A stretch of DNA of 64,000 nucleotides. Origin: a virus. Location: the IMG/VR virus record IMGVR_UViG_3300034107_000725, positions 96,001 to 160,000 of that record; one strand, 5' to 3'. The notes below the pieces were generated by a model. The model made no database searches. It was not told where the DNA came from and saw nothing but the letters and a program-made list of their open reading frames with translations. The position numbers were made by a program, and so were the translations under genes. Positions 2-47,368 of the stretch are shown here, one piece after another; within the stretch, counting starts at the first letter, position 1, and every line of letters begins with the position of its first letter.

Positions 2-1246
2 CTTAAGGCCGCGTGTAACGCGTTCAACACTGGTCGACAGCTGGCTCAGTGGAATGAAAACGATTCTGTGTTGGACAAGCTGGCAAGTTTCCCGCTAGCC
101 GACTACGACAACATCCACGATAAGATGTGGGGCAAAGCCCAAGAAAAAGTAGCTGCTGCTTCATTTACGCAGCCTAAGTTTCTAACTTACGACGAACAGT
201 TTCGCCAGGAACTGTTGAATCGTGATCTGAGTGCCTTCACCAAGTCAGCTTCCGCTGAGCCTGAGTTAAGTCCGATGGCTGCCGACGAGCAGGCTGACAA
301 TCGCACCAAGCGGGCTTACGCTAGTTACGATTACCTTAATCGACTAGCCGAAGAAGCTCGTAGAGAAAAGACTGCAGCTGCGTCTCAGCTCGAGAAGACA
401 GTCGGGCAACTGGAAGATTACTTCCGCAAATTTGCACACGATCGCCTGTCACTGGCTCACGTGCAACACGCTGCTGCAACATACTACGGCACAGCAGGCA
501 AAGCTCTGATGCACCACATCGCAGACCAGTTGCCCAACGAAAAACGTGCTTCGGATTACACTTCGTCCTGGAGTGGCTTTCAATTGGCAGTGGATCGCAC
601 ACAAGAGCCTTACACTTTGATTGAGGCATCTATCAAGCGAGCTGCTGCGTATCAAATAGCCATAGATCAACTTAACGAAGCTCAAGAGAAGCTGGCTGAG
701 GCAAAAAAGGCAGTTGCCCCTTTTTCTCAGCCCCGGTTCGAAAGCTCGAATGGGAGCCCAGTTACCCTGACTCCCTCCTTGCTTCCTGACGCCGGGGAAA
801 AAGAAGCCAATACCGGGGTTAGTGCAGCGTTAGCTGGTGGGTTAGGTATGGGTACTGCCAGAGAGCTGGGTGAGTACGCCATACATGGTGCGGACAGCAG
901 GATGCAAGGATTGCTGAACGAGCTAGACGATCCAAATCACCTTAACGAACTACGGAAGATCCGAGCTCAAACGGTACTTACTCAGTTGATGAGCGATCCG
1001 GAGAGCCCTATCAGTAGTTACGATCCGGAAGAAGTACTTTCTGCTTACAACGATATGATTAAGCTCTCGCCTAGGCTGGCTGATCAACCTTCGGCGGTTG
1101 GCCCACTGTTGAACAAGCGGTTATCGGGAAATATTGAACCGTTTGAACTCGGTGAGACTTTGAAACTGGAACAAGGGCTCAAGCAAACACAATCCACCCC
1201 GTCTTATATGGACTTGACGAAAAATGAAAACAGTATCGTTGGCTGA
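2..1246 (+). CDS. Head-associated protein, 5'-truncated (K-x-A-rich N-terminal part, Gly-rich hydrophobic helix then helical C-terminal domain)
   Basis: Frame is open from position 2 (LKAACNAFNTGRQLAQW...), so the GTG at 68 is probably not the start. Many K-x-A motifs up to EKEA (nt 797-808), followed by GVSAALAGGLGMG. Confidence 0.6.
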   Translation, partial: LKAACNAFNTGRQLAQWNENDSVLDKLASFPLADYDNIHDKMWGKAQEKVAAASFTQPKFLTYDEQFRQELLNRDLSAFTKSASAEPELSPMAADEQADNRTKRAYASYDYLNRLAEEARREKTAAASQLEKTVGQLEDYFRKFAHDRLSLAHVQHAAATYYGTAGKALMHHIADQLPNEKRASDYTSSWSGFQLAVDRTQEPYTLIEASIKRAAAYQIAIDQLNEAQEKLAEAKKAVAPFSQPRFESSNGSPVTLTPSLLPDAGEKEANTGVSAALAGGLGMGTARELGEYAIHGADSRMQGLLNELDDPNHLNELRKIRAQTVLTQLMSDPESPISSYDPEEVLSAYNDMIKLSPRLADQPSAVGPLLNKRLSGNIEPFELGETLKLEQGLKQTQSTPSYMDLTKNENSIVG

Positions 1247-2396
1247 CATTTCGTACGAGCAAGGCCTACAACTATTGGCACTGCGAAAGCAGGCCATGGA
1301 CGCTGGGCAAGTTCGTCGCATGACTCCGGAAGCATTGGCAAACACTTTTCCGCTTCGCAGCATCGGTCAAGCCACGATCGAAAAGCTAGCTGAAGGTGGA
1401 TTTTTGGATAGTCTAAAATCCGGAATTAAGAATGTTGGTGATAAGTACCAAGGCATAGATCCATCAGTTCGCAAAGCCTTACTGTCTACTGTGGCTGGAA
1501 CTGGATTAGGAGCTGCAGCCGGAGTCGGTTCAGCATACCGTAGGGGCGATAAAAACTACGGACGGAACGCTCTGCGTGGTGGTATTGCCGGGGCTGCTGT
1601 TGGTGGTGGTCTTGGTCTTGCCTTAAATCCGCAGCTGGCAAATAAGATACAGGAAAAGACTAAACCGGTAGTGGACAATCTGGATGCTAAAACGCAGCCA
1701 GGAGATCCCGCAGCTGCTAATTTACAAAGCAAGGCCACAAGCATTAATCCAGAGCTTGCAGGTCTGGCGACCGGGCTTGGTTCTGGTGGAGCCGCTATCG
1801 AAGGAATTCGTCGCGTGCATAATTATAAATCATACGATCCACAGGCGATGGCCAATCATCTTTGGGAAAAAGCTCAGACGGGTGCGGTTGGAGCTACTGA
1901 CGCTAAAGGCAAGATGAAACCTTCTAAGTTTTCGATGGAAGGTTTATCCCGTATGCTGGGTTATTCTCAGGCAGAAACCGTGGGTCGGGGTGGAAAGCTG
2001 GGTAAGGCCGAACTGTTACGCGAGCTCATCCAGAAGGGGCATGTGAATTCAGAAAGGCTTGCAACTTTACTAGAAAAAGCCGACCACGGTGCTAACGTCT
2101 TTGGAAAGATGAAATCCGGACCTACGTTTTTTAATTCAAAAACACCGGACACTAAATCGATGCTATCGTCCGTCGTGGGTAAAGAAGGATTACAAGAAGC
2201 GATGGAGGCGGCTGAACGCACTGGGTTTAGATCTGCTAAAGGTTCACTACGTCCTAAAAAGGTCGGGATTGCGGGTCTTTTGGCTACGTTGGGCTTAGGT
2301 GGCGTGGGCTACGGCATAAAGAATTATCGAGCCGATGCCGCTGTACGAAACCAAGCACTTGAAGCGGTCAAAAATCAAATCACAGATAAACCCTAA
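1224..2396 (+). CDS. Gly-zipper/hydrophobic-segment protein, putative internal head (ejection) protein
   Basis: 390 aa, four Gly/Ala-rich hydrophobic stretches (GTGLGAAAGVG, GGIAGAAVGGGLGLAL, LAGLATGLGSGGA, IAGLLATLGLGGVGYG), basic; sits directly before the protease. Confidence 0.45.
   Translation: MKTVSLADISYEQGLQLLALRKQAMDAGQVRRMTPEALANTFPLRSIGQATIEKLAEGGFLDSLKSGIKNVGDKYQGIDPSVRKALLSTVAGTGLGAAAGVGSAYRRGDKNYGRNALRGGIAGAAVGGGLGLALNPQLANKIQEKTKPVVDNLDAKTQPGDPAAANLQSKATSINPELAGLATGLGSGGAAIEGIRRVHNYKSYDPQAMANHLWEKAQTGAVGATDAKGKMKPSKFSMEGLSRMLGYSQAETVGRGGKLGKAELLRELIQKGHVNSERLATLLEKADHGANVFGKMKSGPTFFNSKTPDTKSMLSSVVGKEGLQEAMEAAERTGFRSAKGSLRPKKVGIAGLLATLGLGGVGYGIKNYRADAAVRNQALEAVKNQITDKP
1416..1427. 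promoter_or_regulatory. AAWTCCGGAWTT palindrome, copy inside a CDS
   Basis: TAAAATCCGGAATTA (1414-1428) is identical to 21061-21075. Confidence 0.45.
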
Positions 2397-2408
2397 GGTA
2401 CACCGCTC

Positions 2409-3893
2409 ATGGCTTTGATCAAATTTGTCTCGCCTTCGGGCTGGGATTTTGAGCAACGGATTGTCTCACCGATCAAGATGAGCAGTCGAGGTTTGATTGG
2501 TGAGGATCGCCGGGAATTCCTGAAGCGAGCCAGCCATGCGTTTTTGCCCCAACTGGACAACGTCAAGTTTGCCAAGGACGAAGTCCCGGTTCACTTGATT
2601 GCTCTTGGAGCCAGCGAAGCCTACGGTCCCAACCGTAACGGTGACGGCTTTAAGGAAGCGACCTGTCGAGAACACCACCACACGTTTACCAAGTTTGCCA
2701 AGTTCTTCCGTAACCATAAGAACAAAGCCGAGCGTGGTGATCCGTACTACGGCTACGTCAAGGCATCAGCTTACAACGAAGACATGCGTCGCGTTGAGTT
2801 GCTGTGTGCCCTAAATGCCGAAAAGTCAGCCGCAAATCGCAACGGTGGATTTGTTGCAGACACTGAGTTGGAAAAGATTGCACGTGGCGAAGACATGGCT
2901 GTCAGTATGGCCTGTCGTGTGCCACATGACGTCTGTTCCTTCTGCAAGCACGCTGCAAAAAATCGATCTGAATACTGCACTCGCGAGAAATGTGCTGCCG
3001 GTGGTTGTCAAAGTAATCTGACACGATTAGTGAAGGTCGGTAGTGATCTTCACCACCTGCACGTTGACAATCCTAATCCAACGTGGTTCGATATTAGCCG
3101 TGTCTTTCGTCCAGCTGACCGTATTGCTTACGGGGCTAAAGCGGACTATCTAACCAAAGCTGCTGCGGATTCTGGAATTTTTGAGTTGCAAGATTACATC
3201 AAAATGGCGGAGAATTCTACCGCACCGCTTGATGTGATTCTGTACCAATCCGGTCACCACGGTTTCTGGTCTGAGAAGTTCGCAGCTCAAGTAAAACTAG
3301 GATATGGACTAGCTGCACTTGAAAAATACGAAACAGCAAGAGATGCTAATACATATCGAGCCCACGCAACTGCCGATTTTCCAATCGAAAAGATGGCAGC
3401 GTTCGGCTCCTCCCAATGCGATACTCAGTTGGCTGCGATGGCCGATCGAAAAATCATCTTGAGTTTGAAGGATTACGCACGATTGGCAGGCCGAGAAGAA
3501 CATGTTAAAAGTGCTGCTGCTTTCTTACCGGGGATCTATTCTCATATGACCACCGATGAGTCGTTACCCCTCAGGGTCGAAAGCGGCATGTGCTCGTTTA
3601 TCGAAAAGACAGCCAACGAAAGCTCTCGTATGCTCGCGGCTACACTTCATGCAGAGTACTCTCTGCAGAAGGAAGCAGTTGAGGATCGGGGCTTTCTGAG
3701 TTGTATCCGGGGGCAGCCTGCTCCCGTGATTGTCCCGTATGAAAAGTCAGCCACTTGTGACGAACACGGTGAAAGGCTTGCCAAGGATTACGCTATGTAC
3801 AAATTGGCAGCCCTCTGGCGTGTCGCCGCAGTGGATACAGACTTTCCATTGACAGTGAGTTTGAGTCTCCGTCAAAATCGAGTTTTTCACTAG
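2409..3893 (+). CDS. Prohead (capsid maturation) protease with Cys-rich insertion and C-terminal extension
   Basis: HK97/assemblin-like motif order: FRNHKN (His), VSMACRV (Ser), CSFC..C..C..C cluster, WFDISRVFRPAD; located upstream of scaffold and capsid genes. Confidence 0.75.
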   Translation: MALIKFVSPSGWDFEQRIVSPIKMSSRGLIGEDRREFLKRASHAFLPQLDNVKFAKDEVPVHLIALGASEAYGPNRNGDGFKEATCREHHHTFTKFAKFFRNHKNKAERGDPYYGYVKASAYNEDMRRVELLCALNAEKSAANRNGGFVADTELEKIARGEDMAVSMACRVPHDVCSFCKHAAKNRSEYCTREKCAAGGCQSNLTRLVKVGSDLHHLHVDNPNPTWFDISRVFRPADRIAYGAKADYLTKAAADSGIFELQDYIKMAENSTAPLDVILYQSGHHGFWSEKFAAQVKLGYGLAALEKYETARDANTYRAHATADFPIEKMAAFGSSQCDTQLAAMADRKIILSLKDYARLAGREEHVKSAAAFLPGIYSHMTTDESLPLRVESGMCSFIEKTANESSRMLAATLHAEYSLQKEAVEDRGFLSCIRGQPAPVIVPYEKSATCDEHGERLAKDYAMYKLAALWRVAAVDTDFPLTVSLSLRQNRVFH

Positions 3894-3934
3894 AGAACGA
3901 GCGGAACTCTAAGCCGTTTAGCAAGGAGTGCGAT

Positions 3935-5272
3935 ATGAGCAATTCTGCAGTACAGTCGATGCGATCCATCGACCGATTTTTGCAGGAAGTCGCCGCAACC
4001 GAAAAGCGAGCTGCTGAAGCCAACAGTGAGCGAGGCAGTATCGGCGGAGCGACGACCCACCCTGTGAAAGATGTGGACGATCAAACGGAAGACGCCCAAG
4101 AAGGTTCTCGTTCAGCGGAAAACACCGCTGATGTGAAAGCCGATCAAGGCCCAGCCGCTGTTGATAACACACCTGAAAATGTTGCGGACAAAAAGGCAGC
4201 GGCTAAGCGAGCTTCGGCCCGCAAGCAAGCTGTCGACGGCAAGTCTGAAGACGGTGCGATTAACCCGCCCGGCACAGCTGAAGACGACCAACTTCAAATC
4301 GGCACACGTAAATCAACCACAGGTCAAGATCCTGCCGTAGAAACCTCTTCAGCTAAGGCTGAGAAGGAAGACGCAGCGGGTGGCCGCCTGGGCAATACAG
4401 CTCACCCTGCTCGTACCAACAATGGTGAGCTGGATGGTTACAAGTATGCCGAAATGCCGCTGGATCAGCTCGCTAAAGTTGCTTCCGACATGGGCAACAA
4501 CTTGTTGGCTCAACTGGCTAACTTGCAGAAACAAGCTGCAGGACTGGTCGGCGGTCAAAAAAAGTTGGACATGAACGGCAACGGTAAGCTCGAAGGTTCA
4601 GACTTTGCCTCGATGCGAAATCACTCGCAAGAAGAAGGCGAAGAGGATGAAGACGAGAAGGAAGCCGCAGATCTGGCCGGTCAAGCCGGTTGGGAACTTG
4701 CAGGTCTTCTGAGCGGTAACTTCGATAAGAAGGCTGCCGATTCCCTGGTGCGTAGCACTTTGGAAGAAATCATTAAGACTGCTTCCGATGATGCCGACAA
4801 GGTTGCTTCCTTCCTTGTTAGCTACGAGGAAGAACTCGTAAAAAAAGCTGGAGGTGAAATGCCCGCTGGCATTGATCCCGCAGCCATGGGCATGGGCGGT
4901 GCTGGTCCTGATGAAATGGCCGGTATGGACCCTGCAGCTATGGGTGGTGATCCTGAAGCTATGGGCGGTGGTGACGCTGGTGGGGATCAGGTCGCTCAGT
5001 TGGCCGCCCTGCTGGAACAGCTTGGCATTTCACCTGAAGAACTTGAAGCAGCTATGGCTGCCGAAGGCGGTCCCGGTGAAGCTGGTGGTGCCCCTATGGG
5101 CGGCGAACCTATGGGTGAGCCTGCTCCAGAACAGGCAAGTGAAGCTCCTGGCATGGAAGTTGAGGCTTCTGCAAAGCGACATGTCGCTAAGCAAGCTACT
5201 GCCAAAAAGGGTGCTGCTAACAACTTGGTGCGGGATTACATTCAGGAAATCCTGGAACGGTCTCGTCATTAA
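3935..5272 (+). CDS. Scaffold/prohead core-like acidic low-complexity protein
   Basis: 445 aa, Ala/Glu/Asp/Gly-rich, many K-x-A motifs, DMNGNGKLEGSD loop, GMDPAAMGG repeats; AAGGAG RBS; between protease and capsid genes. Confidence 0.6.
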   Translation: MSNSAVQSMRSIDRFLQEVAATEKRAAEANSERGSIGGATTHPVKDVDDQTEDAQEGSRSAENTADVKADQGPAAVDNTPENVADKKAAAKRASARKQAVDGKSEDGAINPPGTAEDDQLQIGTRKSTTGQDPAVETSSAKAEKEDAAGGRLGNTAHPARTNNGELDGYKYAEMPLDQLAKVASDMGNNLLAQLANLQKQAAGLVGGQKKLDMNGNGKLEGSDFASMRNHSQEEGEEDEDEKEAADLAGQAGWELAGLLSGNFDKKAADSLVRSTLEEIIKTASDDADKVASFLVSYEEELVKKAGGEMPAGIDPAAMGMGGAGPDEMAGMDPAAMGGDPEAMGGGDAGGDQVAQLAALLEQLGISPEELEAAMAAEGGPGEAGGAPMGGEPMGEPAPEQASEAPGMEVEASAKRHVAKQATAKKGAANNLVRDYIQEILERSRH

Positions 5273-5326
5273 TTCTAGGCTAGCATTCTGCTAGCTCCAT
5301 CTGAGGCAACTCACGGAGGTTTCCGT

Positions 5327-5767
5327 ATGAATACGAAGCTCGCAGCCCAGACGATTGAATTCATCGCCGCTTCGTCGGCGTTGAATGACCGTCTGATGGG
5401 CGAAGTGCAAGCTCATCGTGCTCGGGAAAAGCAGGCGGCTGCGAAGCGGCAGGCAGTTCTCGATCTCATGGTGAGCACAGGAAGTGTTGCTCCACATCAA
5501 AAGCAGGCAGCTGCTGGGATGTTGGGTGATCATAGTCAGAGTCTGGACCTACTGGTCAACGCAATCAACAAGATGCAGTCATACAAGGCAGCATCCGAAA
5601 AGGCGGCGTCTGACTTAGGACAGGCTGTGTCGGATCGGGAGTCTGGCGTTAAGTCAGCTTCCACGGTTCGTGACAGTTTGAACGATCCCTATGTCGGACG
5701 ACTGACTTCTGAGAAGAAGGCGTCGGACGTGGCAATTCTGGCGGTTCTGAACGCTCCGCGTTCTTAA
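5327..5767 (+). CDS. Small helical scaffold/internal head protein
   Basis: 146 aa, Ala-rich, 7 of 10 Lys in K-x-A; GGAGG RBS. Confidence 0.5.
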   Translation: MNTKLAAQTIEFIAASSALNDRLMGEVQAHRAREKQAAAKRQAVLDLMVSTGSVAPHQKQAAAGMLGDHSQSLDLLVNAINKMQSYKAASEKAASDLGQAVSDRESGVKSASTVRDSLNDPYVGRLTSEKKASDVAILAVLNAPRS

Positions 5768-5820
5768 CTTTCACACTCTAGGTCTATGTCAGGCCTTAAA
5801 TCGGTATCAGGAGGATTCCT

Positions 5821-6348
5821 ATGGCTGCTCCGCGGCAAATGACTGCCAACACTTTGAATGCGTTAAAAGGTTGGCCGCAGATGAATGCGGTCGATTACCA
5901 CGCGGCAATCGACTCGACGGTCACCACTCCTGTGCTTGCAGGCTCAGTGGTGCACGTAAACAGCTCAGGCAACTTTGTTCCGGGCGTTGGCAATCTAAAT
6001 GTCATGCCTATGTTCATCTTCAACAGCTCGGATGACCCAGATGTCTCCAATGATGGCGGCGACGCCTCAACGGATCCTGGCGTATTCATCCCTATTAGCC
6101 CAACTGGCCAGGCAATGGCTTTGGTGGCTATTGGGGCTTACGAGTTGGTAAGCACAGCTTACGTGGCTGGTTCTTACTTGCCTAACGCTCCGCTTACATC
6201 GGCTACCACCGGTGATAACAAAGGTAAGCTCGTAGCTGGCAACATGTACACCAACATGATCGTGGGATTTGTATCTCGCGGCGTTGTGGACAATGGTTAC
6301 GGTAAGAATGCTTTGGCATTCTGGCCCTTCCCTATTTTCCCTGATTGA
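5821..6348 (+). CDS. Capsid decoration/cement protein (probable)
   Basis: 175 aa beta-rich protein immediately upstream of the major capsid gene, the usual position of lambda gpD-like decoration genes; AGGAGG RBS. Confidence 0.55.
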   Translation: MAAPRQMTANTLNALKGWPQMNAVDYHAAIDSTVTTPVLAGSVVHVNSSGNFVPGVGNLNVMPMFIFNSSDDPDVSNDGGDASTDPGVFIPISPTGQAMALVAIGAYELVSTAYVAGSYLPNAPLTSATTGDNKGKLVAGNMYTNMIVGFVSRGVVDNGYGKNALAFWPFPIFPD

Positions 6349-6421
6349 TTTTCCAGACCCGTACCAGACTCGCAGTTGATAAGCCACAGGCTTAATCAAC
6401 TCAAACAAGGAGGTTTTCTTA

Positions 6422-7369
6422 ATGGCTAGCTCCACTATGATGACTCAGGAAGAAAGCAAACTCCTGAGCCAAACGATCTTCGAGAAGCTCGCTTCTCGGG
6501 ATTCGGGCCTGGAAAAGCAAGCAATTGACGCAGTCAATGATTTTACCCGCACCAAAATGCGGGAAGATGGCTTTTTCCGCCGAATTATGCCGCCAATCCC
6601 AATCTCCAACGACGATCTCGATCGTCAGGTAGATACGGACAAGCCGGTAAAGATCGTGGACAAAGAACCGAACAGCCCTGCCGCTGTTTCGATTCCTTTT
6701 GCCACACTGCCGACGAACCTGTACATCAAGGGTGACCGTTACAAGGTGACCTTCGATCGTATCGTGACACCTAAGTTCACGAAGGACGTCGATGAGCTTC
6801 GTACCTGGTACATGGATATCCGTCAGGTTCTGAGCGATAACGCCATCAAAGACATGCTGGCTGAAGAAGATGGCAAGTTCATCTCCGCAGTCAACACGGC
6901 TCTGGTTGGCCCTGGCCTGGTCGTCCCGACATCGGGCACGATTCAGTATCAGGAAATCTCAGGCGGTATCACCCGTGATACCCTGTGGGATAGCCTCAAA
7001 ATTATGCCAAACACGCCTTCGAACTTGGAAGTTCACTGCGTGCTGCTTAACAACATCACCATCAAAGAAGTTGCGAAGTTTACTCGTAACGAAATGGGTG
7101 GCGACCTCAGCGAAGAGATCATGCGTAACGGCTGGACTCTGAGCGAGTGCATGGGTGTTAAGTGGGTGATTACGATCAAGAAGGGTCTCGTGCCAACAAA
7201 CACGATGTACCATTTCGCTGATCCTAAATTCATTGGCAAATCGTATATGCTCGAGGATACTACAATGTATATCCGTCGGGAGGCATATTTTATCGAATTC
7301 TTCGCGTACGAGTCACTGGGCGGTACGCTCGGTCACACGTCTGGCCTTGCTCGCGTTGACTTTACCTGA
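6422..7369 (+). CDS. Major capsid protein (HK97 fold)
   Basis: 315 aa; FFRRIMPP, TPKFTKDVDELR..MDIRQ, KDMLAEEDGKF pattern typical of HK97/encapsulin-like capsid proteins; AAGGAGG RBS; hairpin follows. Confidence 0.85.
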   Translation: MASSTMMTQEESKLLSQTIFEKLASRDSGLEKQAIDAVNDFTRTKMREDGFFRRIMPPIPISNDDLDRQVDTDKPVKIVDKEPNSPAAVSIPFATLPTNLYIKGDRYKVTFDRIVTPKFTKDVDELRTWYMDIRQVLSDNAIKDMLAEEDGKFISAVNTALVGPGLVVPTSGTIQYQEISGGITRDTLWDSLKIMPNTPSNLEVHCVLLNNITIKEVAKFTRNEMGGDLSEEIMRNGWTLSECMGVKWVITIKKGLVPTNTMYHFADPKFIGKSYMLEDTTMYIRREAYFIEFFAYESLGGTLGHTSGLARVDFT

Positions 7370-7393
7370 TAAAAATTTCATAGGTAAGACGTT

Positions 7394-7427
7394 GCTCCTG
7401 GTTTATGCCAGGAGCCTGTCTTCCTTT
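7394..7427 (+). terminator. Stem-loop after the major capsid gene (weak terminator or mRNA-stabilising hairpin)
   Basis: GCTCCTGG-tttatg-CCAGGAGC followed by a pyrimidine-rich but interrupted tail (ctgtcttccttt). Confidence 0.5.
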
Positions 7428-7441
7428 GAGGAGCCACACTC

Positions 7442-7714
7442 ATGGCAGTAGCTTTTCCAGGTGCATATGTCGATCAGAGTATCACGGAACGTGGACCGTA
7501 TGATCAAACGTCAGAAGCTGTGGATGTCGGGAATCCCCCGGATCTCGGCTATGACCGTAGCTACGCGGTAGGCAGAGCCACTACACGTACACTGGATCTT
7601 TCTGGTCAGCAGACAGACCCTAAACCCTTCCCACCCAACAGATGGGTTGTAGGTCGTGACCCTTACGCCGTCGGTGGCGGTGTATACAGTTACCTCCTGA
7701 ACTCTGGCGGTTAA
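7442..7714 (+). CDS. Hypothetical small virion protein
   Basis: 90 aa, GAGGAG RBS, fills the gap in the operon. Confidence 0.6.
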   Translation: MAVAFPGAYVDQSITERGPYDQTSEAVDVGNPPDLGYDRSYAVGRATTRTLDLSGQQTDPKPFPPNRWVVGRDPYAVGGGVYSYLLNSGG

Positions 7715-7732
7715 CACCGTCGTTGTGGTTTT

Positions 7733-7746
7733 AAATTCCGGAATTT
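7733..7746. promoter_or_regulatory. Perfect 14-bp palindrome AAATTCCGGAATTT, intergenic
   Basis: Immediately 5' of the RBS of 7759..8154. Confidence 0.5.
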
Positions 7747-7758
7747 GGAGTATTCACT

Positions 7759-8154
7759 ATGTCAAAGAACACGCAAGCTCTGCCCAACGCGGCTGACGCT
7801 TACAATCAGTTGTTCGATGGCGTGCATGCTCAGGTCTTCCTCGGCAAGTTGGCCAGCTACGGTATTCAGCCTACGACTGAAAAAGAAGCTGCTGACTTGT
7901 TTGCGTTGGCCGGGCAACTTCGGCACGTCGATAGCCCTGTGAAGCAAGCCGCTGAACAGAGCCGTTTTGGAGGAGCCGTCTCGGCTCTTGATTCTGTGCT
8001 TGGTCACTCACCCGCAGCCCAACAGCATCAAGCTGCTGCCTACGGTGAAGCGATTAAGCAGGCAGCTGCTGACCTGATGCAAGACTCCAGCGTGTACAAC
8101 GCTGTGCTCTCGCTGAAGGCTCACGAAGCTGCTATCTTGGCTGGCGGTAACTAA
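7759..8154 (+). CDS. Small helical head-associated protein (K-x-A-rich)
   Basis: 131 aa; GKLA, EKEA, VKQA, IKQA motifs; GGAG RBS. Confidence 0.55.
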   Translation: MSKNTQALPNAADAYNQLFDGVHAQVFLGKLASYGIQPTTEKEAADLFALAGQLRHVDSPVKQAAEQSRFGGAVSALDSVLGHSPAAQQHQAAAYGEAIKQAAADLMQDSSVYNAVLSLKAHEAAILAGGN

Positions 8155-8551: not shown

Positions 8552-8590
8552 AGGTCGGTTGGTTACAATGTGGCCAACCGACCTTGTCTA
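8552..8590 (+). terminator. Strong hairpin, probable terminator ending the head operon
   Basis: AGGTCGGTTGG (8552-8562) is the perfect reverse complement of CCAACCGACCT (8574-8584); followed by tgtctatt (weak U tract). Confidence 0.6.
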
Positions 8591-8608
8591 TTGATAGAAA
8601 GTGCCAAT

Positions 8609-9853
8609 ATGCTGCTGAGCCTGTTCACTCCAACGCATAAGCCAACCTACTTACCAGAAGCCTACCATTCGCTAAAGCAGCAGAATCTTAAGGACTGGGA
8701 ATGGGTCATCCTTCCCAACGGCAACAACGTCGTAATCCCTGAAGAGATCCAGCGGGATAAGCGAGTTCGAATTGTCACAGGTGGGGAGCACCTACATAAC
8801 GTAGGGGCTTTAAAGCGAAAAGCCTGTGACGCTGCCAGCGGCGATGCGTTCATCGAATTTGATCATGACGACATGCTGGTACCGGGTGACTCGCTCGACA
8901 TCATCCGAGACAAGTTTATAAAAGGTGCCGGGTTTGTTTATTCCGACACCGCTGTCTTTAGATTCAAGCAGGAAATGGGATCAGACGGACAGCTAAAGGA
9001 CGTACACAGTCCTTACACGTATTCTCAGCAGCACGGCTGGGAAAGCTATCCAATCACAGCCAACGGGCTGGATTTGTTGGCGACCAAGTGTTTTGAAGTG
9101 TCGCCAAGGTCCCTGGCCGAAATTTACTACTGCCCGGACCACGTGAGAAGCTGGTCACGTAAGGCTTACTATGAAGCTGGCGGCCACAATCCAGAACTTT
9201 CGGTTTGTGACGATCATGAGCTCATGATCAAAACGTATTTGACCGGTGCTCCGTTTGTGCACACAGGTGGCTGTCAGTATCTGTACCGCATGTTTGATCA
9301 CAACACGGTCATTATGCGGAACAAGCAGATTCAGGATATCACCCGCACACTGAGGGAAACACATGTACAAGGGTTGATCAAATCCTGGCTTAAACGTAAG
9401 GACTTTGCCGAATTGGATCTGACTACGCTGAGACAGTCCGGCTGGGAGCCCGATCGACATTTGCTTCAAGGTTTTGGAAAAGACCAATATGGTCATATAA
9501 TAGCAGATACCGAACTGCAAAAGTTCACAGGTATTCAGGTCCGGGAATTCATGAATGAAGCCTACGAAGCTCTGGTTCCAGGCGGTTATCTTTCCATCAC
9601 AGTCCCTGAAGTCCATTCTGGTATGGGCTATGGTGATGTAGAGTGGCAGAGCCATTTTAGTGCGGTCAGCATGAATCCATACACTCGTGTGACATCTGCC
9701 CGCAATAATGGTAAAGTAAACTGTCGGTTCCAGCAGATTAACTGCTTGGAGGTATATCCTTCAGAATGGCACCGCGACAATGGGTTTAAGTTCCTGCGAT
9801 TTGAGCTGGCTGCTCTCAAGGGACAAAGACACCCAGGACTTCAACATATTTGA
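8609..9853 (+). CDS. GT2-family glycosyltransferase fused to a degenerate class I methyltransferase-like domain
   Basis: SLFTPTH...WEWVIL..N, EFDHDDML (DxD), CDDHELM are GT-A/GT2 motifs; C-terminal FMNEAYEALVPGGYLSITVP resembles SAM-MTase strands. ATG 8609 preferred because the GTG at 8570 lies inside the hairpin. Confidence 0.8.
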   Translation: MLLSLFTPTHKPTYLPEAYHSLKQQNLKDWEWVILPNGNNVVIPEEIQRDKRVRIVTGGEHLHNVGALKRKACDAASGDAFIEFDHDDMLVPGDSLDIIRDKFIKGAGFVYSDTAVFRFKQEMGSDGQLKDVHSPYTYSQQHGWESYPITANGLDLLATKCFEVSPRSLAEIYYCPDHVRSWSRKAYYEAGGHNPELSVCDDHELMIKTYLTGAPFVHTGGCQYLYRMFDHNTVIMRNKQIQDITRTLRETHVQGLIKSWLKRKDFAELDLTTLRQSGWEPDRHLLQGFGKDQYGHIIADTELQKFTGIQVREFMNEAYEALVPGGYLSITVPEVHSGMGYGDVEWQSHFSAVSMNPYTRVTSARNNGKVNCRFQQINCLEVYPSEWHRDNGFKFLRFELAALKGQRHPGLQHI

Positions 9854-9905: not shown

Positions 9906-18997
<9,092 letters not shown>

Positions 18998-18998
<1 letters not shown>

Positions 18999-20071
18999 TG
19001 ATTGAAACACTCTTACGTCAACGTAGTCCTGCTGCAGGAAATCCCGGCAACCAGTATCTGGCTGTCGGGATGTCTGTAGCTCCATTTATCGCAATCTATA
19101 AGAGAAACGGAGATACATTTACTCGGCTTGCTACGCCTGCGTCTGTTCCCATATATGCCGTTACAGGCGTTGCTTGGAACGGATACGACCATTTAATAAC
19201 GGTACACGCAGCATATCCGTATGCGACAGTGTATAAGGTCAATCGATTTACTGACTCATTTACGAAGCTGCCAGACTTCGTCACCAATCAAGGTTACGCA
19301 GACACAGGAGCCGTTTCAATTACTACGATCTCTGGTACTACATATATGGCTTTTACTTTTTCTCTAGTGCCTTATCTTAAGTCTTTCATTATTTCCGGCG
19401 ATACTTTTGGTCAATGTTCCAATCCGGCTTTGCCGCTCTCGCCTGCTACAGGTAGCAGTGCAGGTAATGACATTAAGTACAATCTTAATTCTGGTTCAGG
19501 TAACTGGTTTGCTGTCGGTACTCAAGGCCGACTTTACATATATCGCACGGCTAATCCGCCGGTACAAGTAACACACAGTATGACGGCTGGCGGTGGTTTT
19601 CAGGGAAGAAACGCGGTGCTTCCAAGCGTAAATGACGACTTTATGATGTACAATGCGGCTAGTACTCTTTATTTGTATACAATAACAGGGGGACCTTCTA
19701 CGCCTACTTTTGGCACTAACACGCCTTCCAGTATTTCCCACGGTGGAACTTGCTTCTCCTTAACACAGGATAGCTACTGGTCATGTTTTATAGCGGCAGG
19801 TTGTGGCTCATCCCCTTTCCTTAAAATTTATGATTGTTATGGCCAGTTTATTAGTCAGTGGACTACATATACACTATCGGCCAATCCGCCTAGTCACGTT
19901 GTGGATTCTTGTTTTACTTACGAATCTGATCCCCTACTTGCCTGTGCCCACGCGGCTTCACCGTATATCTCGTTTTACAGACGAAGTGGAACTTCTTTCA
20001 ATAAACTCTCCGATCCCGCTGTTCTACCTAATGGGGCAGCTACCAGTATTGCGTTGAGTGCCACCTTCTAA
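18998..20071 (+). CDS. Beta-propeller-like fibre-associated protein
   Basis: TGATG overlap with the collagen gene; repeated blade-like units (SVAPFIAIYKRNGDTFTRL, AAYPYATVYKVNRFTDSFTKL, AASPYISFYRRSGTSFNKL); Ser/Thr/Tyr-rich. Confidence 0.55.
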
Positions 20072-46453: not shown

Positions 46454-47368
46454 GTGGCAAAACGAGCAAGCGGACGAGCAGAAGCTATTCGATTGTTGAA
46501 GCAAGACGGTGGTGAAGATCAACGCACCCCGCAACAGATGACGTTTGCCGTGAACTACTTGACGTTCTTTGGCTACATTGCAGTACACTTGCTGCAAAAC
46601 CTGGAACTCAAAGATATCAAGGCAGCGATCAAGGCTTTTCAAAAAATCTTTGGCCTAAAAGAGGACGGCACACTCACGCCGCAAACTTTACGTGCCATGG
46701 AAGGACCTCGATGTGGTTGTCCTGACCACATTGACGCGGACAATAAAAACCACCTTCAATTCATGCGGGCTCAAGAGATCTCAATCGAGAAACGAGATCG
46801 CTGGAACAAGCAAGGATTGAAGTACTTTATCGAGAAGTATCCGACGACCAAGATTCACAAAGACGAGCAGTCGCTTATCTTTGCGTCTGCCTTCCGGGCG
46901 TGGGATGACGTGTGTGGTCTAAATATTTTAGAGTGCAAGAAGGCTGCCGATGCGGATATCATTGTATCTGTAGGCAGTGGGCCTCAGCACAACTTTGACG
47001 GTGTCGGTGGTACGCTAGCCTGGGCCTATCTACCCACGGGAACAGATCAGCAGCTTACGATGCGATTTGACCTCGAAGAAACTTGGGTAGCTAAACCAAA
47101 AGATCGTGGTGTCTTGCTGCACAACGTGGCCTGCCACGAGTTTGGACATCTTTTGGGACTAACCCATTCAAAGCGACCTAGTGCTTTGATGGCTCCATAC
47201 TACAACCCATTTGTCGCTGTCCCGCAAGAGGACGATGACATCACACGAATTGAAAAACTTTACGGCAAAAACAACCAAATTGCCGCAATTCATGAAGTCA
47301 GTAAAGTTGGCTCTAACCTGACAGTGGAACTGCAGCCGGGCCAAAAACTTACGGTTGTTTGCAAATAA
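46454..47368 (+). CDS. Matrixin (M10A, MMP-like) zinc metalloprotease with PG-binding-like prodomain and cysteine switch
   Basis: AIKAFQKIFGLKEDGTLTPQT..AM..PRCGCPD prodomain; HEFGHLLGLTH zinc motif; ALMAPYY Met-turn; FDGVGGTLA loop; GGAGG RBS with GTG start. Confidence 0.92.
   Translation: MAKRASGRAEAIRLLKQDGGEDQRTPQQMTFAVNYLTFFGYIAVHLLQNLELKDIKAAIKAFQKIFGLKEDGTLTPQTLRAMEGPRCGCPDHIDADNKNHLQFMRAQEISIEKRDRWNKQGLKYFIEKYPTTKIHKDEQSLIFASAFRAWDDVCGLNILECKKAADADIIVSVGSGPQHNFDGVGGTLAWAYLPTGTDQQLTMRFDLEETWVAKPKDRGVLLHNVACHEFGHLLGLTHSKRPSALMAPYYNPFVAVPQEDDDITRIEKLYGKNNQIAAIHEVSKVGSNLTVELQPGQKLTVVCK

What the first reader, a model, noticed from the sequence alone, without database searches (positions are those of the whole stretch)
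2..8154. K-x-A motif looks like a prohead-protease processing code across the head proteins
Seen (manual counts of Lys followed by Ala at +2): 16/28 in 3935..5272, 7/10 in 5327..5767, 4/6 in 7759..8154, 17/32 in the protease, versus 1/15 in the tail sheath. The motif is also positionally restricted. In the major capsid protein it occurs only at K22 and K32 (none of the later Lys). In 1224..2396 it occurs only at K22 and K54 (0 of the following 31 Lys). In the first ORF it stops at EKEA (nt 797-808). Established: T4 gp21 (I/L-x-E) and phiKZ gp175 (S/A/G-x-E) cut short motifs that are dense in scaffolds and propeptides and depleted in mature domains. Inference: this protease recognises K-x-A, shreds the scaffolds, and removes about 24-34 aa from the capsid protein and about 56 aa from 1224..2396.
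Basis: partly seen in the sequence, partly recalled or inferred. Interest (0 to 1): 0.82.

Follow-up and report, generated by a model that had tools for sequence, protein, structure and literature searches.

The report
Lys-x-Ala cut-site code of head protease
The head-building proteins of this uncultured 194-kb phage, and of a very large group of relatives, carry a short Lys-x-Ala tag that most likely marks where the phage's T4/herpesvirus-type capsid protease cuts, a new specificity for this enzyme family, although no cut has yet been measured.

Summary
K-x-A occurs 3-4 times more often than composition predicts in five head-core proteins, in whole-protein and local-block shuffles. The signal appears only at the +2 offset and only in frame. 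Of all gapped residue pairs it is the top one (z 10.4). The same scan on T4 core proteins returns the proven I/L-x-E code.

The full footprint is hydrophobic-E-K-x-A-[A/S]-[D/A]. It recurs in every relative tested, down to 28% capsid identity, including Salmonella phage Arash. K-x-A is the top pair in 127 of 150 protease representatives.

ORF 2409..3893 has the T4 gp21/herpes assemblin fold (Z 8.4, top of 48,161 chains) with invariant His103 and Ser166. The capsid protein's K32-x-A34 is invariant, but K22 is not. In the 1224..2396 family the tag sits only in the first ~55 residues and is depleted afterwards (5 observed, 26.6 expected).

Best reading (about 0.72): a prohead-protease cleavage code, probably cut after Ala, that shreds core proteins and trims capsid and internal proteins. 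Cleavage itself is untested.

The scan already reported this code on another genome (e1-5688984) and in the preceding window (e1-5815356).

This is a new variant of a known kind.

The parts
2..1246 (+). C-terminal 414 codons of a 461-aa head-core protein (the gene starts 139 nt upstream of the window). Predicted to be shredded over its first ~316 aa, leaving a 145-aa site-free C-terminal domain. The last site is EKEA at nt 797-808.
   Evidence: 14/29 Lys are in K-x-A; 12/24 within the window. Orthologues keep the density, and none has a site in the conserved C-terminal domain.
1224..2396 (+). 390-aa Gly-rich internal protein with a predicted N-terminal propeptide. Sites at K22 and K54 (K54-L-A56 = nt 1383-1391); the predicted mature part is 334 aa.
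   Evidence: Across 9 family members the sites lie only in the first ~55 aa; after residue 80 there are 5 observed against 26.6 expected.
2409..3893 (+). Prohead protease. Residues ~17-234 form a gp21/assemblin-fold catalytic domain, with His103 (nt 2715-2717), Ser166 (nt 2904-2906) and a Cys cluster at 176-200. Residues 233-286 form a disordered linker carrying sites K250 and K265. Residues 289-491 form a helical, scaffold-like domain. It has 17 K-x-A sites in all.
   Evidence: AF2 model, pLDDT 75. VIA-align top hits: T4 gp21 Z 8.4, VZV protease Z 6.5, HCMV protease Z 4.8. BFVD hits to named prohead proteases. Invariant residues. Blastp to phage G gp19 at 5e-12, aligning H103, S166 and D237. 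No other S77/S78/ClpP-type gene in the genome.
3935..5272 (+). 445-aa Ala/Gly/acid-rich scaffold-like core protein with 16 K-x-A sites. A 116-aa stretch between cut sites (residues ~306-421), largely the Lys-free (D/E)PAAMGG-type region, would stay uncut.
   Evidence: The first site is K-x-A in all 9 orthologues, with x varying freely (R/F/Y/N/T/S/Q).
5327..5767 (+). 146-aa core protein with 7 of 10 Lys in K-x-A. Predicted to be shredded to fragments of 31 aa or less.
6422..7369 (+). Major capsid protein (315 aa). The predicted maturation site is E31-K32-Q33-A34 (nt 6512-6523), giving a 34-aa propeptide and a 281-aa mature protein. The second site at K22 is not conserved.
   Evidence: The family profile hits PDB 6wkk_A, 'Gp27 major capsid protein' (identified from memory as phage G), at E 2.7e-10, and tblastn hits the Arash major capsid protein. 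K32 and A34 are invariant in alignment A2, which includes relatives at 29-32% identity, and in 93/93 anchored homologues.
7759..8154 (+). 131-aa Ala-rich protein downstream of the capsid gene, with 4 of 6 Lys in K-x-A. Predicted core protein.
   Evidence: orthologues have 3-6 sites each.

Best explanation
The extended motif hydrophobic-Glu-Lys-x-Ala-(Ala/Ser)-(Asp/Ala) is the substrate code of the phage's prohead protease, ORF 2409..3893. This is a Ser/His enzyme of the T4 gp21 / herpesvirus assemblin fold, joined through a disordered linker to a helical, scaffold-like C-terminal domain.

Proposed mechanism. The protease is built into the prohead core together with Ala-rich core proteins. Once the shell has formed, it cuts at the code, most likely after the Ala. 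That would make Lys the P3 residue, Ala the P1 residue and Ala/Ser the P1' residue. This P3-x-P1 layout is the one seen in T4 (L/I-x-E), phiKZ/SPN3US ((S/A/G)-x-E) and herpesviruses ((V/L/I)-x-A|S).

The cutting would have two outcomes.
- Shredding into pieces mostly of 56 aa or less: the protease itself, the 146-, 131- and 405-aa proteins, most of the 445-aa scaffold, and the first two thirds of the 461-aa protein.
- Trimming of N-terminal propeptides: 34 aa from the capsid protein, 56 aa from the 390-aa protein, and 83 aa from a 283-aa protein elsewhere in the genome.

Shown here: the motif, its specificity, its conservation, its distribution, and the protease fold. Inferred: that the motif is cut, by this enzyme, and at which bond.
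For: (1) Enrichment is 3-4 fold and robust to shuffles and block shuffles. It is offset-specific and the top of all gapped pairs, and it is in frame only.
(2) Positive control: the same blind scan on T4 gp67/68/21/22 returns I-x-E and L-x-E, the experimentally proven gp21 code, as its first- and fourth-ranked pairs (z 3.7 and 3.4).
(3) The footprint covers -2 to +4 only. It is the same in 93 sites of this genome and in 105 sites of the distant relatives L019, L021 and Arash. R-x-A, K-x-S and K-x-G are not enriched. Glu at -1 and a hydrophobic residue at -2 accompany motif Lys but not other Lys.
(4) The same orthologues are enriched in all 15 related genomes, and their tail genes are not. All 120 close protease homologues are enriched. 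K-x-A is the top pair in 127 of the 150 best-scoring 50%-identity cluster representatives.
(5) Sites turn over while density is kept, as expected if many cuts are needed rather than particular ones.
(6) The motif is depleted in a mature domain that sits inside the head: 5 observed against 26.6 expected.
(7) K32/A34 at the capsid protein N-terminus are invariant.
(8) The motif also marks N-termini or whole lengths of unlinked genes, as T4 and phiKZ internal proteins do.
(9) The protease fold and conserved His/Ser are supported. In relatives, inteins sit at G73|S and A168|C, inside the two most conserved motifs. No other prohead-type protease is present in the genome.
(10) SPN3US gp245 also prefers Ser at P1' and cuts itself (PMC10052503, PMC5694885).
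Against: - No proteolysis data exist for this clade. The Arash virion proteome lists no peptides, detects 116 of 252 proteins, and is uninformative.
- Lys at motif sites is no better conserved in position than other Lys (0.44 vs 0.40).
- Eight sites lie in the protease's own catalytic domain and are nearly invariant, which could reflect structure rather than cutting.
- Many sites lie in or at the ends of predicted helices.
- Full cutting would still leave a 116-aa scaffold piece.
- The protease has no sequence-level match to Pfam S77/S78, and hhalign to T4 gp21 failed.
- The third catalytic residue is unassigned.
Confidence: 0.72

Rival explanations
1. Same protease and same code, but the scissile bond follows the Lys (hydrophobic-x-Lys|x-Ala). 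The hydrophobic residue would then be P3, as in T4's L/I-x-E, and Lys would be P1, as in HK97, where gp5 is cut after Lys103.
For: A hydrophobic residue at -2 is strongly enriched (44/93 and 71/105 sites; p 2e-5 and 5e-16), which gives a T4-like hydrophobic-x-P1 spacing. The HK97 cut after Lys is established knowledge, recalled from memory.
Against: Ala at +2 would then be an invariant P2' residue, which is unusual. The A/S preference at +3 fits a P1' position, as in herpesvirus A|S and in SPN3US (PMC10052503). K and A are the two defining positions and are spaced as P3 and P1 in all three characterised enzymes of this fold.
Confidence: 0.2
2. K-x-A is a docking or targeting tag that is not cut. 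It would bind the shell interior, the portal or the protease's C-terminal domain, and so recruit proteins into the prohead.
For: It has the same distribution as a packaging signal: core proteins, N-termini of internal proteins, and unlinked genes. T4's capsid-targeting sequence overlaps its cleavage motif (established knowledge).
Against: - A docking tag does not need 14-17 copies per protein at spacings of roughly 13-56 aa.
- It would not be selected against in the mature part of a packaged protein (5 vs 26.6).
- A footprint of 7 residues, with two fixed positions separated by a free one, matches a protease subsite pattern.
Confidence: 0.1
3. The code is cut by a different protease, either a host enzyme or one of the phage's other proteases (for example the MMP-like gene at 46454..47368), and not by ORF 2409..3893.
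For: No enzymology links enzyme and motif. Other protease genes are present in the window according to scan notes e1-5815394 and e1-5815388, which were not checked here.
Against: The motif co-occurs with this protease family across the 150 best-scoring of 3511 matching 50%-identity cluster representatives, and it saturates the protease itself, as in self-cutting gp21, gp175 and gp245. The substrates are head-core proteins enclosed with this enzyme.
Confidence: 0.05
4. There is no function. The motif is a by-product of Ala/Lys-rich helical composition in scaffold-like proteins.
For: The proteins are 13-21% Ala and largely helical. Several sites start helices.
Against: - Block shuffles.
- Offset specificity: 56 at +2 against 6-21 at most other offsets and 33 at +3.
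- Presence in coil and in the beta-rich protease domain.
- Invariance in a capsid protein with 5% Ala.
- Maintenance across relatives at 28% identity.
Confidence: 0.03

Closest known systems
Phage T4 prohead core system (gp21 protease; gp22, gp67, gp68, IPI-III, gp23, gp24 as substrates)
   Same: - Same protease fold (Z 8.4).
- The protease is encoded with the scaffold and capsid genes.
- A two-position P3-x-P1-type code is dense in core proteins and in the protease itself. T4 [LI]xE counts are gp22 16 observed vs 5.8 expected and gp21 7 vs 2.6.
- An N-terminal propeptide is present on the capsid protein, and unlinked genes are tagged.
   Different: - The code is Lys-x-Ala rather than Leu/Ile-x-Glu.
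- No sequence-level match to Peptidase_S77.
- The protease is 494 aa, with a Cys-rich insert and a 200-aa helical C-terminal domain.
- The capsid propeptide is 34 aa, not 65.
phiKZ gp175 / SPN3US gp245 and their (S/A/G)-x-Glu code (PMC5694885, PMC10052503)
   Same: - A large phage with a probably virion-carried multisubunit RNA polymerase.
- Many head proteins carry N-terminal propeptides that hold several motif copies.
- The protease cuts itself.
- Ser is preferred at P1'.
   Different: All characterised members cut after Glu. Here no Glu-ending pair is enriched. The protease and capsid proteins are not detectably similar in sequence.
Herpesvirus assemblin (UL26 family; VZV, HCMV, KSHV proteases)
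   Same: - Fold match (Z 6.5, 4.8 and 2.8).
- Protease domain joined to a scaffold-like C-terminal part by a linker that carries cut sites (R-site analogue: K250, K265).
- Predicted cut at Ala|Ser/Ala, resembling (V/L/I)-x-Ala|Ser (established knowledge).
   Different: P3 is Lys rather than a hydrophobic residue. There are dozens of sites rather than two. It is a phage enzyme whose third catalytic residue is probably acidic.
Bacillus phage G gp19 (head maturation protease) and gp27 (major capsid protein, PDB 6WKK)
   Same: These are true sequence homologues: protease blastp 5e-12, with the NxNGD, H, VSM(A/G)C and ADR motifs aligned, and capsid profile E 2.7e-10. K-x-A is over-represented in gp19 (8 observed vs 2.5 expected) and gp21 (7 vs 2.8). 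The K-x-A just after the catalytic domain is shared.
   Different: In phage G the pair ranks only fifth overall (z 2.7). The 282-aa capsid protein has no K-x-A and no N-terminal extension. No cleavage code has been reported for it in the papers I could read (PMC12484599).
Salmonella phage Arash gp220-gp226 (PMC10585845)
   Same: Cultured member of the same clade: capsid protein 29% and protease 37% identical. Enrichment is the same: gp220 10/21, gp223 8/17, gp225 7/13. The conserved capsid site is V-K27-E-A29.
   Different: The paper annotates gp222 only as 'structural protein' and mentions no protease, scaffold or processing.

Membership tests
Prohead serine protease of the gp21/assemblin fold (MEROPS clan SH: S21, S77, S78, S80) | Assemblin-type beta-barrel fold of the catalytic domain | tested here: met
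   AF2 model residues 17-234. The top three of 48,161 PDB representatives are T4 gp21 (Z 8.4, rmsd 3.8, 143 aa), VZV protease (Z 6.5) and HCMV protease (Z 4.8). BFVD Foldseek hits to named prohead proteases have E values of about 1e-5 to 4e-3.
Prohead serine protease of the gp21/assemblin fold (MEROPS clan SH: S21, S77, S78, S80) | Conserved catalytic His and Ser plus a third residue (Asp/Glu/His), in the order His...Ser...third residue | tested here: inconclusive
   H103 and S166 are invariant in 23 diverse sequences and align with H and S of phage G gp19. The His-to-Ser spacing is 63 residues, against 55 in T4 and 76 in SPN3US. The third residue is not assigned; candidates are D174, D/E188, D228 and D237. 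No residue-level structural alignment was available, and hhalign to gp21 failed.
Prohead serine protease of the gp21/assemblin fold (MEROPS clan SH: S21, S77, S78, S80) | Match to the family's sequence models (Pfam Peptidase_S77 or S78) | tested here: not met
   No Pfam hit at E <= 0.01. PF03420 and PF04586 find nothing in the whole genome. This is a separate sequence family: 3511 clusters at 50% identity, and none of the 120 listed homologues carries a Pfam domain.
Prohead serine protease of the gp21/assemblin fold (MEROPS clan SH: S21, S77, S78, S80) | Gene lies in the head module, just upstream of the scaffold and major capsid genes | tested here: met
   The gene order is conserved in 14 relatives and in Arash. 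Capsid protein identity is supported.
Prohead serine protease of the gp21/assemblin fold (MEROPS clan SH: S21, S77, S78, S80) | Proteolytic activity on head proteins and on itself | not testable with these tools
   Needs co-expression or virion N-terminomics.
T4/phiKZ-type head processing code | Short motif enriched in core or scaffold proteins and in the protease | tested here: met
   T4 control.
T4/phiKZ-type head processing code | Motif confined to N-terminal propeptides and avoided in mature domains of proteins that stay in the head | tested here: met
   390-aa family: 5 observed vs 26.6 expected after residue 80. Capsid protein: the body is free of sites in 86/93 homologues, but those homologues are closely related. 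The 283-aa protein has 6 sites, all in its first 81 aa.
T4/phiKZ-type head processing code | Cleavage C-terminal to Glu | tested here: not met
   No x-Glu pair is enriched; the code is Lys-x-Ala. The system therefore works like the T4/phiKZ one but is not the same code.

The most novel reading that the evidence does not exclude
A very large, almost wholly uncultured branch of gp21/assemblin-fold capsid proteases has switched from the 'cut after Glu' rule of every characterised phage member to a Lys(P3)-x-Ala(P1)|Ala/Ser rule. The branch comprises 3511 clusters at 50% identity, with Arash, three Vibrio phages and perhaps phage G as its cultured members. The new rule resembles the herpesvirus Ala|Ser sites. 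The tag then acts as a genome-wide address label that predicts, from sequence alone, which proteins enter the capsid and where they are trimmed, including ejection proteins and the tail on the virion RNA polymerase.
Probability: 0.6. Interest if true: 0.72.

Novelty: new variant of a known kind. Interest (0 to 1): 0.62.

Why it matters
The only mapped cleavage codes of this kind that I know of are those of T4, the phiKZ group and the herpesviruses, with HK97's individual sites besides; the mapped phage codes all end in Glu (PMC5694885). A second, well-defined code in a clade that is abundant in metagenomes would bring three benefits.
1. It shows how the specificity pocket of this fold can change, possibly towards the herpesvirus Ala|Ser type.
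2. Head-core, propeptide-bearing and packaged proteins could be annotated by motif in thousands of genomes where Pfam and PHROGs return nothing. Here 10 of 10 head proteins had no usable family hit.
3. It gives exact, cheap predictions in cultured phages, for example an Arash capsid protein starting at Gly30.

It also supplies a natural peptide/protease pair with a compact recognition site.

Tried and rejected
- **Family searches.** Pfam and PHROGs on ten head proteins gave nothing usable. The same was true for the 841-aa upstream protein (a portal candidate by position only), the 405-, 283- and 359-aa tagged proteins, and the presumed sheath. Their identities stay open.
- **Nucleotide search.** Megablast of the first 10 kb against phage records found no match.
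- **Sequence routes from the protease to known proteases.** All failed: a profile against PDB sequences, hhalign to T4 gp21 and PF03420 on the genome. PDB Foldseek placed gp21 only 10th (E 0.36). Only VIA-align and BFVD gave the fold.
- **Capsid model.** The AF2 model was too poor to use (pLDDT 43), so I could not show where the K32 site lies relative to the HK97-type N-arm.
- **Arash proteome.** Checked for N-terminal evidence. Only coverage percentages are given, the supplement holds gene sequences and no peptides, and 116 of 252 proteins were detected, so it decides nothing.
- **DNA-level motif.** Rejected on frame and codon grounds.
- **Looser motif definitions.** R-x-A, K-x-S and K-x-G are not enriched.
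- **MCP site K22.** Rejected as a conserved site.
- **Edge of the code.** The representatives search listed only the 150 best, all full-length relatives, so the edge of the K-x-A code within the 3511-cluster family was not reached.
- **Literature.** A search for K-x-A together with prohead found nothing.
Full report
**Where the window lies.** The window is bases 96001-160000 of a 193,990-bp IMG/VR virus record estimated to be 94% complete. Megablast finds no similar phage record. By protein, the nearest cultured phages are Salmonella phage Arash and Vibrio phages D69, D148 and D181. Their capsid proteins are 28-29% identical to the window's, and their protease N-domains 37-40%. Coordinates 2..8154 cover a run of + strand genes:
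- the last 414 codons of a 461-aa gene that starts 139 nt upstream of the window;
- a 390-aa gene (1224..2396);
- a 494-aa gene (2409..3893);
- a 445-aa gene (3935..5272);
- a 146-aa gene (5327..5767);
- a 175-aa gene (5821..6348);
- the 315-aa capsid gene (6422..7369);
- a 90-aa gene (7442..7714) and a 131-aa gene (7759..8154).

Pfam and PHROGs give no usable hit for any of them.

**The observation.** The enrichment does not come from Ala content.
- In 5000 composition-preserving shuffles, none reached the observed count for ORF1 (12 observed, 3.2 expected), the 494-aa protein (17 vs 4.2) or the 445-aa protein (16 vs 4.8). For the 146-aa protein p = 0.0004, and for the 131-aa protein p = 0.019.
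- Shuffling only within 10- or 20-residue blocks keeps local composition and gives the same result.
- Summed over the five proteins, Lys is followed by Ala at +2 in 56 cases. The count is 33 at +3 and 6-21 at every other offset from -6 to +8.
- Among all 1600 residue pairs at spacings 1-4, K-x-A ranks first with z 10.4. The runner-up is E-K at 4.8.
- The signal exists only in the reading frame: AARNNNGCN occurs 58, 3 and 0 times in frames 0, +1 and +2. Codon use at the sites is like that elsewhere. It is therefore a protein feature.
- None of the other 38 ORFs of the window is enriched.

**Positive control.** I ran the same blind pair scan on T4 gp67, gp68, gp21 and gp22. I-x-E (z 3.7) and L-x-E (z 3.4) rank first and fourth, and together they are the experimentally established gp21 code. 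T4 gp21 itself carries 7 such sites against 2.6 expected. The method therefore recovers a proven code, and the signal here is about three times stronger.

**The motif is longer than K-x-A.**
- In 93 sites of this genome, the enriched positions are: a hydrophobic residue at -2 (44/93, background 0.27, p 2e-5), Glu at -1 (31/93, p 2e-13), Ala or Ser at +3 (51/93) and Asp at +4 (18/93, p 2e-5). Positions beyond -2 to +4 show at most weak biases.
- An independent set of 105 sites from the distant relatives L019, L021 and Arash gives the same footprint: hydrophobic at -2 in 71/105 (p 5e-16), Glu at -1 in 29/105, and Ala or Ser at +3 in 49/105.
- Glu at -1 accompanies motif Lys (23/72 and 27/95) but not other Lys (4/61 and 5/144).
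- R-x-A, K-x-S and K-x-G are not enriched.

A seven-residue footprint with two fixed positions either side of a free one is what a protease subsite pattern looks like.

**Comparative evidence.**
- A capsid-protein scan of IMG/VR gave 14 loci whose capsid proteins are 93% to 28% identical to the window's. In each of them, and in Arash, the orthologues of the same head-module genes are enriched, while the genes downstream of the capsid gene are not. Examples: L019 has 10/20 and 4/4; L021 has 9/12, 12/17 and 6/7; Arash gp220 has 10/21, gp223 8/17 and gp225 7/13.
- In alignments, some sites are fixed while x varies freely. The first scaffold site is K-R/F/Y/N/T/S/Q-A in nine orthologues. Other sites are lost and replaced nearby.
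- Counted over orthologues at 55% identity or less, Lys at motif sites is no better conserved than other Lys (0.44 vs 0.40). The motif Ala is better conserved than other Ala (0.58 vs 0.40, p 5e-6). About half of all Lys stay in K-x-A in every lineage. Selection therefore maintains density more than position.
- All 120 close homologues of the 494-aa protein have 33-68% of their Lys in K-x-A.
- A search of 1.84 billion cluster representatives found 3511 matching clusters. In 127 of the 150 best representatives, K-x-A is the single most over-represented x-spaced pair of the protein, and it is at least 2-fold enriched in all 150.

**Distribution: two classes of protein**.
- Some proteins carry sites along their whole length, at spacings of about 13-56 residues: the 494-aa protein, the 146- and 131-aa proteins, a 405-aa protein on the minus strand at genome 175213..176430, most of the 445-aa protein, and the first 316 residues of the 461-aa protein. 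The conserved 145-aa C-terminal domain of the 461-aa protein has no site in any orthologue.
- Others carry sites only at the N-terminus: the capsid protein (K22, K32), the 390-aa protein (K22, K54), and a 283-aa Gly-rich protein at genome 60998..61849, which has six sites in its first 81 residues.
- In the 390-aa family, all nine members keep their sites in the first ~55 residues. After residue 80 they hold 5 sites against 26.6 expected from their Lys and Ala content. The members are related, so this is not nine independent trials. Avoidance of the tag in a mature domain is what one expects if the tag is harmful there, that is, if it is cut.
- In the capsid protein, K32 and A34 are invariant columns in an alignment that includes relatives at 29-32% identity. 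They are K-x-A in 93 of 93 homologues that could be anchored, and in Arash (V-K-E-A).
- The K22 site reads K-L-S, K-L-G or K-L-M in many relatives and is not part of the conserved code. The predicted propeptide is therefore 34 residues.
- Capsid-protein identity is supported by a profile hit to PDB 6wkk_A, 'Gp27 major capsid protein' (E 2.7e-10), and by the Arash annotation. Identifying 6WKK as phage G rests on my memory.

**The enzyme.**
- An AlphaFold2 model of the 494-aa protein (23-sequence alignment, pLDDT 75) shows a beta-rich N-domain (residues ~18-232), a disordered linker (233-286) and a helical C-domain (289-491).
- Aligned to 48,161 PDB representatives, the three best chains are the T4 capsid assembly protease gp21 (Z 8.4, 143 residues, model 17-234), varicella-zoster virus protease (Z 6.5) and cytomegalovirus protease (Z 4.8). 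Unrelated folds follow at Z 4.8 or less.
- Foldseek against predicted viral structures returns phage G gp19 (7.6e-8) and several entries named prohead or capsid maturation protease (E about 1e-5 to 4e-3).
- Blastp against phage G gp19, which PMC12484599 calls a head maturation protease, gives 5e-12. It aligns the N-x-N-G-D loop, His103, the V-S-M-A/G-C motif with Ser166, and the A-D-R motif with Asp237.
- His103, Ser166, Asp174, Asp228 and Asp237 are invariant in 23 diverse sequences. I could not assign the third catalytic residue.
- Many relatives carry inteins (Hint plus LAGLIDADG domains) in this gene, inserted exactly at G73|S inside the N-x-N-G-D loop and at A168|C, two residues after Ser166. 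Inteins typically sit in the most conserved, essential sites of a protein (established knowledge), so this fits those two motifs forming the active centre.
- The genome has no S77-, S78- or ClpP-type gene elsewhere.
- Of the protease's own 17 sites, most lie in coil or at helix ends. K39/A41, K95/A97, K139/A141, K156/A158 and K250/A252 are at least 90% conserved as pairs, and K53 and K465 at the Lys. K250 and K265 sit in the disordered linker. The site after the catalytic domain is shared even with phage G (L-E-K-V-A-S).

**How it most likely works.**
- The protease enters the prohead core through its helical C-domain, as the herpesvirus UL26 protease-scaffold fusion does. Ala-rich core proteins enter with it.
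- After shell assembly it cuts at hydrophobic-E-K-x-A|(A/S). This frees its own catalytic domain, reduces itself and the core proteins to peptides small enough to leave the shell, and removes the propeptides of the capsid protein and of internal proteins.
- I place the cut after Ala for two reasons. In T4 (L/I-x-E|), phiKZ/SPN3US ((S/A/G)-x-E|; PMC5694885, PMC10052503) and herpesviruses ((V/L/I)-x-A|S; established knowledge), the two specificity positions are P3 and P1 with a free P2, which is the K-x-A spacing. The A/S preference at the next position also matches the P1' Ser of herpesviruses and SPN3US.
- The hydrophobic residue at -2 leaves room for the alternative of a cut after Lys (hydrophobic-x-K|, as in T4's layout). 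I give that about 0.2.
- Shown here: the motif, its specificity, its selection, its distribution, and the fold and conserved residues of the enzyme. Inferred: that cutting occurs, that this enzyme does it, and which bond is cut.

**Rivals.**
- A non-cleaved docking tag would explain which proteins carry the motif. It would not explain 14-17 copies per protein or the avoidance of the motif in a mature domain.
- A composition or helix artefact is excluded by the block shuffles, by offset specificity, and by invariance in a capsid protein with 5% Ala.
- A DNA-level signal is excluded by frame specificity.
- Another protease cannot be excluded formally, but the motif saturates this enzyme family itself in the 150 best-scoring cluster representatives.

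**Against the main reading.**
- There are no proteolysis data for the clade.
- The Arash proteome paper reports coverage only, detects 116 of 252 proteins and mentions no protease.
- The conserved sites inside the catalytic domain may be structural.
- A stretch of about 116 residues in the scaffold, largely Lys-free, would remain uncut.

**Comparison and novelty.** The system works like the T4 and phiKZ head-processing systems, and its enzyme has their fold. It fails two membership features: there is no match to the S77/S78 sequence models, and it does not follow the cut-after-Glu rule. I found no paper that mentions a K-x-A code for a prohead protease. I rate it a new variant of a known kind. 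I re-derived the claims independently here and added the T4 control, the depletion test, the 150-cluster survey, the intein evidence and the link to phage G.

Noticed in passing
L009:2066-4690, L017:4737-7349; proteins P0241, P0245, P0249: Many relatives carry one or two inteins (Hint plus LAGLIDADG homing endonuclease, ~375-400 aa) inside the prohead protease gene. They are inserted exactly at G73|S in the N-x-N-G-D loop and at A168|C, two residues after the presumed catalytic Ser166. The window's own copy is intein-free.
   Followed up: partly
window 2934-3008 (protease residues 176-200): A conserved five-Cys cluster (C176, C179, C190, C195, C200) forms an insert in the protease catalytic domain. 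It looks like a zinc-binding knuckle, and T4 gp21 has no counterpart. Phage G gp19 shares part of it.
   Followed up: no
window 9906-18998 and 8570-9853: A 3030-aa protein made almost wholly of collagen triple-helix repeats (PF01391, E 1e-169, 16 stretches; strong GC skew) follows a family-2 glycosyltransferase gene, just downstream of the head module. It may be a glycosylated head or whisker fibre.
   Followed up: partly
window 4850-5130 (scaffold residues ~305-400) and genome 86474-87187 (L003:474-1184): The scaffold has a Lys-free acidic stretch of (D/E)PAAMGG-like repeats. A 237-aa protein 9 kb upstream of the window carries the same repeat type (GGAPPMDPAMAGG, about 4 copies). The function is unknown. 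If the code is cut, this scaffold stretch lies within the largest uncut piece.
   Followed up: no
genome 175213-176430 (-), L004:3213-4427; genome 60998-61849, L005:1998-2846; genome 78343-79422, L006:1343-2419; genome 91674-94199, L003:5674-8196: Unlinked genes carry the tag.
- A 405-aa protein has 14/28 Lys in K-x-A along its whole length.
- A 283-aa Gly-rich protein has six sites in its first 81 aa.
- A 359-aa protein has 5/10.
- The 841-aa protein upstream of the head module (portal candidate by position only) has 11/47, in two clusters (residues 152-260 and 581-652).
None has a Pfam or PHROG hit.
   Followed up: partly
L024 (Bacillus phage G, JN638751) 16840-17742 and 18268-19728: Phage G gp19 is a true sequence homologue of the window's protease. 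K-x-A is over-represented in gp19 (8 observed vs 2.5 expected) and gp21 (7 vs 2.8), with contexts such as L-E-K-V-A-S. The phage G capsid protein gp27 has no site, so the code may reach this cultured megaphage in weaker form.
   Followed up: partly
L001 (Arash OQ632216) 5024-6499: Arash gp222 is annotated only as 'structural protein' but is the homologue of the prohead protease (37% identity over the catalytic domain). The published annotation names no protease or scaffold.
   Followed up: yes
window 5821-6348: The 175-aa protein just upstream of the capsid gene is well conserved (62-80% identity in relatives) and has only 4 Lys. It occupies the position that the capsid decoration gene gp26 holds in phage G, but blastp shows no similarity to gp26.
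   Followed up: partly
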